Origin: Plasmodiophora brassicae
Taxonomy: Eukaryota
Assembly (NCBI GenBank): GCA_036867785.1
Contig: CP145409.1
Location: 868,001-932,000 of the forward strand
Length of the DNA: 64,000 bases
Direction of reading: 5' to 3'
This document shows positions 41,935 to 44,723 of the stretch, one piece after another; within the stretch, counting starts at the first letter, position 1, and each line of letters begins with the position of its first letter. A program made the position numbers and the translations under genes. The notes beneath the pieces were generated by a model. The model saw nothing but the letters and a program-made list of their open reading frames with translations. It was not told where the DNA came from and did not search any database.

Positions 41935-42111
41935 CGTTGGCAATAACAACGCCAATTGGTGTACAGATCGAAAATCTTGTTCGACCTCGGCTCCGTCAAT
42001 ATCTTTACAGCCGAGTTCCAGCAACCGGCACCAAGAACATGGGGCGTACCGCGTCAAGCGGATGTCCAGATTTGGCAGGTGGCCGTTTGATGAGGCGACT
42101 TATTGATATTT

Positions 42112-44583
42112 CTGCAGGCCCCGAGTAAAATGTGGCATATCCGAAAATGGCTCTTTGCTAGTTCGCGAGATAATCGCGTTTGAAGTTTGAGGACGCATTC
42201 GAGTGGGTGGCGGTGGAATTTACAGCAGCTAACAGCATCAGTTCATTCATCGGCGTCGCCGGCGACACGGCGCGCCTGCCGCTTGGCGGCCTGTGCTCTC
42301 TTGGCAGCCTTCAGCTTCTCCTGATCAGGTGCAGGCCACAGATGCCGATACTGTACCGGCATGTTCGGGGTGTAGCCGTGCAACGCGTCCATCTTGATCG
42401 CGTCGATCGGCAGTTCGACGGGATAGCATGCTTCCAGGACAACCACCTCGTTCGGGGCCGACTTGGTGAAGCAAATCTTGGTCCACGCATCCTCCACCTT
42501 CAGCGAGGTCTTGGCCCACATCTCGCCGGGATGGCTGATGTTGACGATCTGGCCGAAGTGGATCCACCGTAGCGGCGAGATCGACAAGGACTCGGCTGGA
42601 TCGGAGGCGCGGCCGCCCAACACGGTGCACCCGACAAACTTGTAGCGCGGCTCCAGGTGCTCTGCGTAGTTCAGGAAGTCGAGTCGGTCCATCCACTTGG
42701 CGCGGTGGGGATTCGGTCGGTCCTTGTAGAACTGGTTGATGGCCGTCACCCAGTCCTTCGGATCATAGATGCGGATCTGCTTGGCCTTGCGCTCGATCGT
42801 GGAGAATATGCGGTCGCAGATGAGGAAGGTGTGGCCGACCTCTGGGTACTTCAGGTGGATCGACCTGAAGCCGCTGAACAGCGGACTGCTGGGATCCACC
42901 AGCTCGGCGCACATGGCAAAGATGTGCCGGTTCTTGTTCTGCCCGGCACAATTATCGCTGATCAGGATGAGGGTCCCGCCCGGCGGCACGTTGAGTTTCC
43001 CCAGCAGGTCGAGCAGGACGGCGATCATCTCGTTGGCCCCGCCTTTGCCGTCCTTCTCGCCCCACAGGTGGAAAAAGTGCTGGTCGAGGTGGGCGACGTA
43101 CATGTCCAGATTGGCGACGTTGTACTGGTCCTTGAACCGAGTCTCCTTCGTCACCAAGTTCGGCGTCGCCAGCTTCTTCTCGTGATCGAAGATGATCGTG
43201 GTGACCCACTGCGTCGGGTCGTCCGGGTAGTCGGTCCGCGAGTCGATGGCGTGCTTGCAATCGAGAGACTGCACCATGTACCCACGCTGGGCAGCGAGCC
43301 GATGCTCGTCGTATTCCTCGACGAGCGTTGTGAAGCCAGGCGTCTCGGCCGGCATCGACTCGATGTGATGCTTGTACATCAAGCACTGCTTGCATTCGTC
43401 CGTTTTGGCCGCGAACAACTTGGCGTACCCGAACTCGTTGCGCCACAGATCCTCAAACCGGCGAAGGCTGATGACCGGAATGGCAGCCACAGGTGCGCCT
43501 GCCGCCAGCGAAAACTCGTACTGCCGCGTGTACTCCAGGTCGATCTTCTTGAGCACCTTCAGCCAGATGACCCGGACGGTGAACGACGCGGGCAAATAGA
43601 TCGTTGCCTTGGCGTGCCGACGCTGGTAGTGGGACGGTGTGCCGTGCTGCTTGATTATGAGAAACGCCTCCTCCCGCACCTGATCGAGGACTTCGGGATC
43701 GATCCGATTGCGGACGACGACACTGCTTGCGCCGCGACGATCGCTCCCGCCGATGACGTCGCCTGGCACTTCGAACGGGTCGTGGTGTCGGCCAGTCATG
43801 CGCGCCCTGGTCGTCTCCATCTTCTTCTTTGAGAATCCGTACACATGCTGGAACATTTGACGGCAGATCTGCTGCTCGACGTTGTCCTCCTGGGCGCGGA
43901 ACCAGTAGGTGAAGCGGTACGATACGCTGTCGGCGACCTTCGTGCAGCGCATGCGGGCGGTGAGGTGGGCGTGCTGCTTCGCGAAAACACGTAGCTTGGT
44001 GTACTCGAGGCGCTCGGCATGAACCATGTCGGCGGTGATGAAGTCGTCGCACTTGAGCGTCGTGCACTTGCAAGGCAGGAACGGTTTCGGCGCCATCGTG
44101 AGCTTCTTGCGAGCGTCATTTTCGGGGTGTCGCGCCCGTTTCGCCGGTCGCGACAGGACCTCGTGCGTTGACTCTTCCGGCACCCGTTGTTGATGAAGGA
44201 CGACTTCCGGAACGGGGCGGTCGACAATGACGTGGTCCACTTGCACGGCAGTGGAATGCTGTACGCGACGCGCCCGTGGCGCTGCGGCACCCCCACCGCG
44301 ACCGCGGCCGGGAGCTGCGCGAGATCCACCGCGCCCACGCTCAGACATCGATGGGGTTTCCTGCGGAGCCGAAAGTCCGGTGTGCCAAATTAGTACCCTT
44401 CGGACTGCGTGATACAGCGCGATAGTCAAACCTGTTGTGGACAATAATAATAGATTATCGCAGCACTCGGGACGCTGGGTCCGGTCCTGCTCAGCGTGAT
44501 CGGGGATAAAAATTCCTTTCGAACGATGCCAGGGTCGAAAAAACCTATTTTTAGAAATGCCACTTTCTACCGCGGCGCGGCAG
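42112..44583 (-). mobile_element. Full-length Sola1-type DNA transposon (2472 bp)
   Basis: Flanked by identical 4-bp ATTT at 42108-42111 and 44584-44587 (fits the AWWT TSD of Sola1). Termini CTGC...GCAG. Ungapped imperfect 39-bp TIRs at 42112-42150 and 44545-44583 (27/39 identical by my count). Encloses a transposase ORF. Confidence 0.85.
42243..44348 (-). CDS. Sola1-type DDD transposase (intact, intronless, ~700 aa)
   Basis: KTDECKQC, TIIFDHEK, YNVANL..LWGEKDGKGGANEM, LISDNCAGQNKN and YPEVGHTFLICDRIFSTIE are characteristic of Sola1 transposases. All three Asp residues are present. Confidence 0.88.
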   Translation of the reverse strand: MSERGRGGSRAAPGRGRGGGAAAPRARRVQHSTAVQVDHVIVDRPVPEVVLHQQRVPEESTHEVLSRPAKRARHPENDARKKLTMAPKPFLPCKCTTLKCDDFITADMVHAERLEYTKLRVFAKQHAHLTARMRCTKVADSVSYRFTYWFRAQEDNVEQQICRQMFQHVYGFSKKKMETTRARMTGRHHDPFEVPGDVIGGSDRRGASSVVVRNRIDPEVLDQVREEAFLIIKQHGTPSHYQRRHAKATIYLPASFTVRVIWLKVLKKIDLEYTRQYEFSLAAGAPVAAIPVISLRRFEDLWRNEFGYAKLFAAKTDECKQCLMYKHHIESMPAETPGFTTLVEEYDEHRLAAQRGYMVQSLDCKHAIDSRTDYPDDPTQWVTTIIFDHEKKLATPNLVTKETRFKDQYNVANLDMYVAHLDQHFFHLWGEKDGKGGANEMIAVLLDLLGKLNVPPGGTLILISDNCAGQNKNRHIFAMCAELVDPSSPLFSGFRSIHLKYPEVGHTFLICDRIFSTIERKAKQIRIYDPKDWVTAINQFYKDRPNPHRAKWMDRLDFLNYAEHLEPRYKFVGCTVLGGRASDPAESLSISPLRWIHFGQIVNISHPGEMWAKTSLKVEDAWTKICFTKSAPNEVVVLEACYPVELPIDAIKMDALHGYTPNMPVQYRHLWPAPDQEKLKAAKRAQAAKRQARRVAGDADE

Positions 44584-44723
44584 ATTTTCGACGGACGGCG
44601 ACTTCATTTGGAGCGCCGCCGGTATAGATCAGCTACGGATTGCGAAGTCATCCGCTTGCGGTGGTGACGTTCCCCAGGACGTACACGTATTAGCCGGTGC
44701 CTAACCCTTGGGTTAAGAGTGCG

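What the first reader, a model, noticed from the sequence alone, without database searches (positions are those of the whole stretch)
42108..44587. Complete Sola1 transposon with ATTT TSD, eroded TIRs and an intact transposase
Seen: ATTT|CTGC...GCAG|ATTT, and two ungapped 39-bp termini (ctgcaggccccgagtaaaatgtggcatatccgaaaatgg vs the reverse complement ctgccgcgccgcggtagaaagtggcatttctaaaaatag, 27/39 identical). They enclose an uninterrupted ~700-aa ORF retaining the three catalytic Asp (IIFD, SDNC, CDRIF) and a CxxC motif. Known: Sola1 elements make 4-bp AWWT TSDs. Inference: strongly diverged TIRs with a preserved ORF mean either a naturally asymmetric active element or a domesticated transposase in an otherwise TE-poor region. 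The RGG-rich N-terminus is an added feature.
Basis: partly seen in the sequence, partly recalled or inferred. Interest (0 to 1): 0.75.

Follow-up and report, generated by a model that had tools for sequence, protein, structure and literature searches.

The report
Intact Sola1-type transposon in clubroot pathogen
This is a structurally complete cut-and-paste DNA transposon of the Sola1 type in the clubroot pathogen Plasmodiophora brassicae, an ordinary kind of mobile element but the only full-length copy seen and still transcribed.

Summary
ATTT flanks both ends (42108-11, 44584-87). The 39-nt termini match 27/39 in inverted orientation. The 701-aa ORF (42243-44348, minus strand) is open. No control placement gave such a repeat together with identical flanking 4-mers (0 of 179).

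The protein has an RNase H-like core with an invariant D388/D465/D512 triad and matches only Pfam DUF7869. Its motif blocks match, with equal spacing, a choanoflagellate element that RepBase types as DNA/Sola-1. Metagenomic relatives also carry inverted terminal repeats and 4-bp A/T-rich duplications, often AWWT.

The organism is Plasmodiophora brassicae. The insertion sits at the same site in both DNA runs laid. The ORF is covered, unspliced, in both RNA runs laid.

Other copies are an in-frame microhomology deletion, 5'-truncated pieces and tail-to-tail fragments. None shares the termini, which remains unexplained.

Verdict: a new member of a known kind, possibly autonomous. Mobility is untested, and domestication is not excluded. 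Sola1 membership rests on motifs, duplication type and architecture, not on a scored comparison with Repbase references. Interest is low to moderate.

The parts
42108..42111 (.). Left target-site duplication, ATTT (fits AWWT)
   Evidence: Identical to 44584-44587. Zero of 179 control placements give an inverted repeat of at least 27/39 with identical flanking 4-mers.
42112..42150 (+). Terminal inverted repeat at the 3' end of the transposase gene. It starts CTGC and has an inner block GTAAAATGTGGCATATCCGAAAATGG.
   Evidence: 27/39 match to the reverse complement of 44545-44583. Match pattern 4/4, 3/9, 20/26.
42151..42242 (-). Subterminal region and 3' UTR. Paralogue homology (at least 90% identity) stops at 42171, not at the element's end.
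   Evidence: Loose end at 42171 in X5, X3 and X16.
42243..44348 (-). Transposase ORF, 701 aa plus stop, unspliced
   Evidence: RNA contigs cover 42332-44330 with 0-4 differences per listed contig and no intron joint. The search found 2583 homologues at E<=1e-3.
44142..44348 (-). RG/RGG-rich disordered N-terminus, residues 1-69
   Evidence: pLDDT below 50. Not conserved in alignment A1. Variants in residues 1-65 are 3 synonymous and 11 non-synonymous.
43404..43703 (-). Winged-helix-like domain, residues 216-315 (probable DNA binding)
   Evidence: Structural matches to winged-helix modules at Z 5-6. The conserved SHYxR block includes H240 and Y241.
43383..43394 (-). CxxC motif (C319, C322)
   Evidence: At least 90% conserved in A1.
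42705..43211 (-). RNase H-like catalytic core, residues 380-548. Catalytic codons: D388 at 43185-43187, D465 at 42954-42956, D512 at 42813-42815.
   Evidence: The three Asp are invariant in 43 sequences. D388 ends strand 1, D465 follows strand 4, and D512 opens a helix. Best structural match is the Mos1 catalytic domain, Z 9.5, rmsd 3.2 A, 165 residues. Pfam DUF7869 covers residues 434-553, E 1.2e-14.
44349..44544 (-). 5' subterminal region: presumed transposase promoter and 5' UTR. It also lies upstream of the divergent ELO gene.
   Evidence: Neither RNA run covers 44408-44524. Paralogue homology ends exactly at the ATG, 44348.
44545..44583 (-). Terminal inverted repeat at the 5' end of the transposase gene. 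Its reverse complement starts CTGCCG and has an inner block GTAGAAAGTGGCATTTCTAAAAATAG.
   Evidence: The metagenomic relative L063 also starts CTGCCG.
44584..44587 (.). Right target-site duplication, ATTT
42282..42288 (.). CTTGGCG, one of two 7-nt direct repeats (the other at 43419-43425) that bound the 1137-nt in-frame deletion found in a paralogue
   Evidence: Joint 42281->43419 with 7 shared letters in X5, X3 and X16. Proteins P0002 and P0152 join ...NEFGYAK to RQARRVAGDADE. The sequence is read.

Best explanation
The 2,472-bp stretch 42112-44583 is one insertion of a Sola1-type cut-and-paste DNA transposon in Plasmodiophora brassicae. It went into an ATTT site between an unnamed gene and an ELO fatty-acid elongase gene, and duplicated the ATTT.

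**What is shown**
- One unspliced gene encodes a 701-aa transposase. It has a disordered RG-rich tail, a winged-helix-like module, a CxxC motif, and an RNase H-like core with the triad D388/D465/D512.
- Imperfect 39-nt ends and a perfect 4-bp duplication.
- Presence at the same site in two DNA samples.
- Transcription in infected plants.
- Excess of synonymous changes in the core.
- Degraded paralogues elsewhere in the genome.

**What is inferred, by analogy with other DDE/D transposases**
- The protein binds the conserved inner block of each end, of the form GTARAAWGTGGCATWTC.
- It cleaves at the conserved CTGC termini with two-metal chemistry.
- It reinserts with a 4-bp stagger at A/T-rich AWWT sites.
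- The element is therefore a structurally complete, possibly autonomous copy.

Actual mobility of this copy has not been shown.
For: **1. Ends**
- 27/39 inverted match plus ATTT on both sides.
- 0 of 300 shuffles and 2 of 84 real-sequence controls reach 27.
- 0 of 179 controls combine 27 or more with identical 4-mers.
- Conservation is bipartite: 4/4 terminal, 20/26 inner, 3/9 between.

**2. Protein**
- Only Pfam hit is DUF7869. It is found in 42 of 43 aligned homologues.
- D388, D465, D512, N473, G505 and H506 are invariant.
- The model has mean pLDDT 81.5 with RNase H topology.
- Best structural matches are the Mos1 catalytic domain (Z 9.5), Metnase (8.8) and retroviral integrases (about 8).

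**3. Link to Sola1**
- AWWT is described as the Sola1 hallmark (PMC3845634 passages).
- The S. rosetta 'Sola1 element [RepBase Type DNA/Sola-1]' protein printed in the PMC6875170 supplement shows W-E-D...GAN, DNC..QNKN and GHT....D..F blocks.
- Its spacings (36 and 7 residues) equal those in P0001. It also has an AK..LLP.S block. The element has a 32-nt inverted repeat and a 4-bp duplication.

**4. Relatives**
- 104 of 204 candidate metagenome stretches were confirmed, and 80 loci were kept.
- 24 of 80 have a flanking inverted repeat of at least 17/20. 12 of 80 also have identical flanking 4-mers.
- Outer ends of the 11 examined:
  - AATT, AATT, AAAT and ATAT at four loci.
  - AACT and AACA at two.
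  - ATAT/ACAT at one and none at one.
  - TTAA, TTAA and GTAA/TTAA at three.
- In the core tree P0001 falls with the AATT/AAAT elements, not with the TTAA ones (split support 98/93).

**5. Family in the genome**
- Paralogues at 94-97% identity lie on other contigs.
- Summed depth inside the element is 2-4 times the flank depth.
- One paralogue is a 7-nt-microhomology internal deletion.

**6. Activity of the gene**
- RNA contigs from two studies cover 42332-44330, while the flanking intergenic DNA has zero cover.
- The neighbour's intron is spliced out in those runs, so they are truly RNA.
- Variants in residues 448-701 are 10 synonymous and 5 non-synonymous, against 23% expected synonymous (P=4e-4).
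Against: - No second copy with these termini was found. In both DNA runs the long flank contigs run uninterrupted into the element.
- The listed loose ends fall at 42171, 42546, 42631, 42952-4, 44337-48 and 44503. None falls at 42112 or 44583.
- The paralogues therefore share only the ORF block, which a simple family of cut-and-paste copies would not predict.
- No empty site was seen. Both DNA runs laid carry the insertion, so recent movement is not shown.
- The ends match only 27/39.
- One insertion cannot establish a target preference.
- Relatives are not uniformly AWWT. Three of the 11 examined have TTAA-type ends, two have AAC-type ends, and one has none.
- The Sola1 comparison was made by eye on printed sequence. 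There is no E-value and no Repbase model.
- Bao et al. 2009 and Yuan & Wessler 2011 were not held.
- Foldseek gave no match at E<=1e-3. VIA Z values of 8-9.5 are only a little above that tool's stated background of 7-8.
- The variant counts mix alleles and paralogues, and linked sites are not independent.
Confidence: 0.7

Rival explanations
1. The gene is a domesticated or immobilised transposase. A Sola1 element inserted here, lost its mobility, and the host now keeps the ORF for its own purposes. The ends are relics.
For: - It is the only full-length copy seen. The other gene models are at most 320 aa at 94-97% identity, and the segment 43004-43354 has flank-level depth.
- The insertion is at the same site in 2 of 2 DNA runs laid. 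Fourteen listed DNA-type runs from 5 studies hold at least 0.82 of the sampled words.
- It is transcribed in 2 of 2 RNA runs laid.
- The core shows a synonymous excess of 10:5.
- Twelve of 39 end positions differ.
- The three P. brassicae lineages cluster together in the tree (support 99/98), which suggests long residence.
Against: - The duplication is perfect, and the terminal CTGC and inner block are conserved while the spacer is not. This is unlike uniform decay.
- The catalytic triad is intact.
- Near-identical paralogues are decaying as deletions and palindromes, which is typical of a transposon family.
- A synonymous excess is also expected among copies descended from active elements.
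- No orthologue or synteny data could be obtained, because no genome is held.
Confidence: 0.17
2. The inverted ends and the ATTT pair are chance. This is one member of a transposase-derived gene family that duplicates by ordinary segmental or repair processes, not by transposition.
For: - Paralogue homology ends at 42171 and exactly at the ATG (44348), not at the proposed ends.
- Two of 84 and 3 of 179 real-sequence controls reach a 27/39 inverted match by chance.
- A/T-rich 4-mers are common in intergenic DNA.
Against: - 0 of 179 controls combine such a repeat with identical adjacent 4-mers.
- The duplication fits the AWWT class reported for Sola1.
- Relatives in metagenomes repeatedly show inverted ends plus 4-bp duplications around the same gene.
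- One relative begins with the same CTGCCG.
Confidence: 0.1
3. It belongs to another superfamily. Candidates are MULE, as two paralogues are labelled in the public record, or piggyBac or Tc1/mariner.
For: - The source names P0003 and P0005 'MULE transposase domain-containing protein'.
- The closest solved folds are Mos1 and Metnase.
- Some relatives have TTAA duplications.
Against: - There is no MULE, piggyBac or mariner Pfam match. P0001 was scanned at E<=1 and five paralogues at E<=5. DUF7869 is the only family in 4 of those 5.
- A 4-bp ATTT duplication fits none of them. From recall, MULE makes about 8-11 bp, mariner TA, and piggyBac TTAA.
- A profile search against PDB sequences gave 0 hits at E<=1, so the Mos1 likeness is fold-level only.
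Confidence: 0.03

Closest known systems
Sola1 group of the Sola superfamily (Bao, Jurka, Kapitonov & Jurka 2009; paper not held, known here through PMC3845634 and PMC4455052 passages)
   Same: - 4-bp AWWT-type duplication (ATTT).
- Terminal inverted repeats.
- A single transposase gene of about 600-800 aa with three catalytic Asp.
- An element of about 2.5 kb.
   Different: - The ends match only 27/39.
- The N-terminal RG-rich tail is not conserved in relatives.
- This appears to be the first description in Plasmodiophora. No paper in the library holds both 'Plasmodiophora' and 'Sola1'.
- No scored comparison with Repbase references was possible.
SrosS, the Salpingoeca rosetta Sola1 element (PMC6875170; RepBase type DNA/Sola-1, reference Sola1-1_MonBre)
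   Same: - Ordered motif blocks W.E.D...GAN, DNC..QNKN and GHT....D..F, with equal spacings of 36 and 7 residues.
- An AK..LLP.S block.
- A 4-bp duplication, a 32-nt inverted repeat, low copy number (2), and transcription.
   Different: - SrosS is 3270 bp and its termini have a different sequence.
- In the printed protein, the stretch that should hold the first catalytic Asp (FD...P) is not evident.
- The comparison was made by eye only.
Insect Sola1 and Sola1_NA miniature elements (PMC3845634)
   Same: - AWWT/AWDT duplications.
- The published inverted repeat contains GAAAGTGG 14 nt from its tip. The right end here has GAAAGTGG 16 nt from its tip. This is a weak lead.
   Different: - The terminal nucleotides differ (GGACC versus CTGC).
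- The insect families have tens to hundreds of miniature derivatives. None was seen here in the window.
Mos1/mariner and Metnase catalytic domains; retroviral integrase cores (solved structures)
   Same: RNase H-like fold with three acidic residues in the canonical positions. Z values are 9.5, 8.8 and about 8.
   Different: - No sequence-level relation.
- A different duplication (recalled: TA for mariner).
- Extra winged-helix, CxxC and C-terminal beta-rich domains.

Membership tests
Sola1 (Sola superfamily) | 4-bp target-site duplication of AWWT type | tested here: met
   ATTT on both sides. AWWT is stated as the Sola1 hallmark in PMC3845634. This is one insertion only, so it shows a fit, not a preference.
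Sola1 (Sola superfamily) | Terminal inverted repeats bounding the element | tested here: met
   27/39 match, with 0 of 300 shuffles reaching it. Zero of 179 controls have a repeat plus identical 4-mers.
Sola1 (Sola superfamily) | Transposase with a DDD catalytic triad in an RNase H-like fold | tested here: met
   D388, D465 and D512 are invariant in 43 sequences. Topology and fold matches support the RNase H-like core. That Sola uses DDD is recalled from Bao et al. 2009, which I could not read.
Sola1 (Sola superfamily) | Signature motifs shared with a transposase typed as Sola-1 | tested here: met
   Four ordered blocks with equal spacing against the printed SrosS protein (supplement of PMC6875170). 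The comparison was by eye, without statistics.
Sola1 (Sola superfamily) | Significant scored similarity to Repbase/Dfam Sola1 references, and none better to Sola2, Sola3 or other superfamilies | not testable with these tools
   No Repbase or Dfam library is on hand. Pfam has only DUF7869 for this region.
Active (mobile) transposon family | Further copies with the same termini at other sites, or presence/absence polymorphism | tested here: not met
   In the two DNA runs laid, no listed loose end lies at 42112 or 44583, and no empty-site joint was seen. Paralogues end at 42171 and 44348. Contigs drop rare variants, and only 2 of the 14 listed DNA-type runs were laid.
MULE / Mutator-like | MULE transposase domain (Pfam) and a long duplication | tested here: not met
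   No MULE match at E<=1 for P0001 or at E<=5 for 5 paralogues. The duplication is 4 bp.
Domesticated transposase gene | Loss of ends and duplication; syntenic orthologues across species; single copy | tested here: inconclusive
   Ends and duplication are still present. There is a single full-length copy. Orthology and synteny are not testable because no genome is held.

The most novel reading that the evidence does not exclude
**Reading.** The copies of this transposase gene did not spread by cut-and-paste.

**Basis**
- Every detectable paralogue shares only the ORF block 42171-44348 and ends exactly at the ATG.
- The paralogues occur as a microhomology deletion, as 5'-truncated pieces, and as tail-to-tail palindromes.

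**Proposed route**
- The gene would then be copied by break repair, fold-back synthesis or RNA-templated synthesis, independently of the inverted ends.
- The one intact, fixed and expressed copy would be kept by the host.
- Its 5' end would serve as shared upstream DNA for the divergent ELO gene, whose transcript begins about 38 nt outside the element.
Probability: 0.12. Interest if true: 0.55.

Novelty: new member of a known kind. Interest (0 to 1): 0.3.

Why it matters
- **A concrete test object.** Sola elements are among the least studied DDE/D transposons, and I know of no demonstrated active copy or solved structure (recalled). A compact element with a complete transposase and both ends defined to the base can be tested for excision.
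- **A name for an unnamed Pfam family.** DUF7869 covers the part of a Sola1-type transposase that carries the second and third catalytic Asp.
- **A label to correct.** The public name 'MULE transposase domain-containing protein' on two paralogues is probably wrong.
- **Relevance to the clubroot pathogen.** A recent preprint concentrates structural variation in repeat-rich regions (10.64898/2026.10.14.759018, passages). This element is a defined DNA transposon that can be tracked across isolates.
- **Overall.** It is otherwise an ordinary transposon insertion.

Tried and rejected
- **Whole genome.** None is held. Genome-wide copy number, derivatives and empty sites could not be computed.
- **Word-indexed protein search.**
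  - It found nothing with P0001 alone.
  - With alignment A1 it found only 4 proteins.
  - The exhaustive search was used instead.
- **Names of distant homologues.** Of the 14 proteins looked up beyond the six named P. brassicae entries:
  - 11 carry no name.
  - One is just 'hypothetical protein'.
  - Two carry an organism label: a thrips hypothetical protein and a 'Sedimenticola MAG' protein. Neither helps classification.
- **Papers not held.**
  - Bao 2009 and Yuan & Wessler 2011 are not held.
  - The Majorek 2014 supplement has no Sola text in the two files searched, and one file was not searched.
- **Literature on DUF7869.** 0 papers.
- **P. brassicae genome papers.**
  - No Sola mention in the passages seen.
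  - The one supplement readable for PMC11191646 was cut when stored and held no repeat table.
  - bioRxiv supplements are closed, so the preprint's repeat tables may bear on copy number.
- **RNA holders.** The look-up of sequencing runs listed no holder on record as RNA. Two runs guessed as RNA were laid and proved to be RNA by a spliced joint.
- **Solved structures.**
  - Foldseek against the PDB gave no match at E<=1e-3.
  - A PDB sequence profile search gave 0 hits.
- **Metagenome scans.**
  - The scan with P0001 alone gave 34 pattern hits, none confirmed.
  - The smaller alignment A2 worked.
- **Earlier findings.** There are none for this genome or sequence. Two notes on Naegleria Sola1 elements did not bear on this report.
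- **Retrocopy idea for the paralogues.** Rejected for now. The 30 letters beyond 42171 are not a T-run.
- **Shared end motif.** GAAAGTGG as an end motif across Sola1 elements is kept only as a weak lead. It is an 8-mer, and in SrosS it lies about 200 nt inside the element.
- **Dropped row.** L049 was dropped from the end survey as low-complexity sequence.
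Full report
**Observation**

- ATTT lies at 42108-42111 and at 44584-44587.
- The 39 bases from 42112, and the reverse complement of the 39 bases ending at 44583, match at 27 positions without gaps. Both begin CTGC.
- The 15 best of 27 inverted pairs between the two 500-nt flanks of the ORF were printed. All lie on this one diagonal.

Chance controls:
- None of 300 shuffles reaches 27, the maximum being 25. Two of 84 real-sequence placements of the same geometry do.
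- In a denser set of 179 placements, 3 reach 27. None combines 27 with identical adjacent 4-mers. One combines 24 or more with identical 4-mers.
- The matches are unevenly placed: 4/4 at the tip, 3/9 next, 20/26 in the inner block. This looks like a cleavage site plus a binding site, not like uniform erosion.

The ORF 42243..44348 on the minus strand is open for 701 codons.

**Organism and copies**

No genome is held for the window. Cluster look-ups name the close relatives as Plasmodiophora brassicae proteins, and P0001 itself is a member of one such cluster.

The exhaustive protein search found 2583 homologues at E<=1e-3. Of these, 516 are at E<=1e-10 and 11 at E<=1e-30.

The near-identical ones (94-97%) are all short gene models on other contigs.
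- **P0002 and P0152** join residue ~314 directly to residue 690. This is the joint 42281->43419 seen in DNA and RNA contigs. It skips 1137 nt, or 379 codons, between two CTTGGCG repeats.
- **P0003** starts at about residue 470 behind unrelated sequence. Its tail reads into an inverted copy of the gene's 3' end. This follows from my comparison.
- **P0019** likewise flips into the opposite strand (same comparison).

Two more diverged lineages exist in the species: P0005/P0153 at 43% identity and P0006 at 33%. The window has no other copy.

**The protein**

- Pfam gives only DUF7869, at residues 434-553 with E 1.2e-14. It matches 42 of 43 aligned homologues.
- In that alignment D388, P396, D465, N473, G505, H506 and D512 are invariant. 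C100, C162, C319, C322 and H349 are at least 90% conserved.
- The AlphaFold model has mean pLDDT 81.5 and pTM 0.65. It shows:
  - a disordered tail at residues 1-69;
  - a helical module at residues 216-315;
  - a beta-beta-beta-alpha-beta-alpha-beta-alpha core. D388 sits at the end of strand 1, D465 just after strand 4, and D512 at the start of a helix.
- Foldseek found nothing at E<=1e-3, but its list is dominated by integrases and transposases.
- The wide structural search put the Mos1 catalytic domain first (Z 9.5, rmsd 3.2 A, 165 residues). Metnase follows at 8.8 and retroviral integrases at about 8. Winged-helix modules match residues 216-315 at Z 5-6.
- That tool warns that Z 7-8 is a common background. 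The fold call therefore rests on topology plus the invariant triad as well.
- A PDB sequence profile search found nothing.

**Is it Sola1?**

- PMC3845634 (passages) calls an AWWT duplication 'a hallmark of the Sola1 transposons'. ATTT fits.
- The supplement of PMC6875170 prints the protein of a Salpingoeca rosetta element labelled 'RepBase Type: DNA/Sola-1; reference Sola1-1_MonBre'.
- By eye, that protein has the following blocks:
  - VWHEQDSPKVRGAN against LWGEKDGKGGAN here.
  - ADNCGAQNKN against SDNCAGQNKN.
  - GHTKGLHDAFF..V.RK against GHTFLICDRIF..I.RK.
  - GAKVLLPISLS against HAKATIYLPASFT.
- The W-to-DNC distance is 36 residues in both, and the GHT-to-D distance is 7 in both.
- That element has a 32-nt inverted repeat, a 4-bp duplication and two copies.
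- I could not compute a score. The sequence could not be handed to a tool, and no Repbase library is on hand.
- The public label 'MULE transposase' on P0003 and P0005 finds no support. There is no MULE match at E<=5 in five paralogues.

**Relatives' ends**

- A scan of metagenome contigs with a 9-sequence alignment confirmed 104 of 204 candidate stretches. The best 80 loci were kept.
- Twenty-four of 80 have an inverted repeat of at least 17/20 around the gene. Twelve of 80 also have identical flanking 4-mers.
- After extending each repeat to its outer end, I examined 11 loci. L049 was dropped as low complexity.

| Loci | Flanking 4-mers |
|---|---|
| L005, L006 | AATT |
| L007 | AAAT |
| L078 | ATAT |
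| L010 | AACT |
| L063 | AACA |
| L024 | ATAT/ACAT |
| L023 | no duplication |
| L030, L066 | TTAA |
| L051 | GTAA/TTAA |

- L063's ends begin CTGCCG, like the right end here. L030, L066 and L051 have ends beginning GACAGGC.
- So 4-bp A/T-rich duplications are a family trait and AWWT is the commonest class, but the pattern is not uniform.
- The core-domain tree has 36 rows. L063 and L066 were left out for short matches. Other loci were included only with a match of at least 140 residues and no stop.
- In that tree the P. brassicae lineages plus P0004 form one clade (support 99/98). They lie on the side of the main split (98/93) that holds the AATT/AAAT elements. The TTAA elements lie on the other side. 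Long branches make the placement tentative.

**Reads**

All runs were Logan contigs. I laid two DNA-type and two guessed-RNA runs.

*DNA runs*
- In both, long single-copy flank contigs of 30.1 and 38.9 kb on the left run into the element as far as 42267.
- On the right, a 20.1-kb contig in X3 crosses the junction from 44215. A 19.6-kb contig in X5 starts at 44550.
- The insertion is therefore at this site in both samples, and no empty-site joint appeared.
- Inside 42185-42900, summed depth is 2-4 times the flank depth. At 43004-43354 it equals the flank.
- This fits one full copy plus several partial ones.

*RNA runs*
- The two other runs show a GT..AG joint (44800->44851) in the neighbouring gene that the DNA runs lack. 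They are therefore RNA.
- They cover 42332-44330 at word depth about 17-20 with 0-4 differences per listed contig.
- They have no cover at 41600-41833 or at 44408-44524.
- The segment unique to the full copy (42952-43419) is covered, so the intact copy is transcribed. The deletion copy's joint is also present in X16.

**Selection**

- The 35 variants listed fall as 15 synonymous and 20 non-synonymous. Two more were not shown. A random expectation is 23% synonymous.
- In residues 448-701 the split is 10:5 (binomial P=4e-4). In residues 1-65 it is 3:11.
- The variants mix alleles and paralogues and are linked, so this is indicative only.

**Unexplained**

- Paralogue homology stops at 42171 and exactly at the ATG (44348). 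It does not stop at the element's ends.
- The 30 letters beyond each stop are unlike the window.
- Internally deleted derivatives of a cut-and-paste element should keep the ends.
- Possible causes are recombination with a diverged subfamily, gene conversion, or break-repair copying. I could not test these without the genome.

**Verdict**

This is a structurally complete Sola1-type transposon, a new member of a known kind, and it is expressed. Mobility is unproven and domestication is not excluded. No paper in the library holds both 'Plasmodiophora' and 'Sola1'. The 'Sola-1' spelling was covered only by the looser search.

Noticed in passing
window 44621-45547 (+): The right neighbour is an ELO/GNS1-SUR4 fatty-acid elongase gene (Pfam ELO, E 1.4e-32). 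It has a 50-nt GT..AG intron at 44801-44850. An RNA contig ends at 44621 directly against sequencing-adapter letters. Its transcript therefore begins about 38 nt outside the transposon's right end, and the two genes are divergent.
   Followed up: partly
P0003, P0007, P0019 (paralogues on other contigs): The truncated 3' parts of the transposase gene lie tail-to-tail. The predicted proteins read from one copy straight into the opposite strand of another (my comparison). These are palindromic junctions of unknown origin.
   Followed up: partly
P0003, P0005 (public names): These are labelled 'MULE transposase domain-containing protein' in the source. Pfam finds only DUF7869 and no MULE domain, so the label looks wrong.
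   Followed up: yes
L030:1814-4650, L066:166-5537, L051:75-2708: Three metagenomic relatives have ends starting GACAGGC flanked by TTAA (TTAA, TTAA, and GTAA/TTAA). This subgroup has a different target site from AWWT. L030 and L051 fall in a separate clade of the core tree, and L066 was not in the tree.
   Followed up: partly
L010:214-5806, L023:309-6130, L024:163-6131: A 5.6-5.9 kb relative with 53-54-nt inverted ends recurs in several metagenomes. Its ends carry internal repeats of the motif CTGAACAGTCGTATA near both termini.
   Followed up: no
window 44503-44550: In run X5 a contig identical to 44207-44503 continues with 29 unlike letters, and the next listed contig starts at 44550. Run X3 is continuous there. 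This may be an isolate-specific variant inside the element's 5' subterminal region.
   Followed up: no
P0022: A 744-aa homologue (27% identity) is filed under a bacterial metagenome-assembled genome (Sedimenticola sp.) on a 4-kb contig. It may be a eukaryotic contig binned by mistake, or a bacterial relative.
   Followed up: no
window 24185-24375 / 24810-24994 and 1534-1649 / 3331-3452: These are the only internal repeats of at least 100 nt in the window's self-comparison, at 76% and 73% identity.
   Followed up: no
window 39738-40415 (+): This ORF matches the SNAP (soluble NSF attachment protein) family, E 8.9e-14. It is an ordinary host gene upstream of the element.
   Followed up: no
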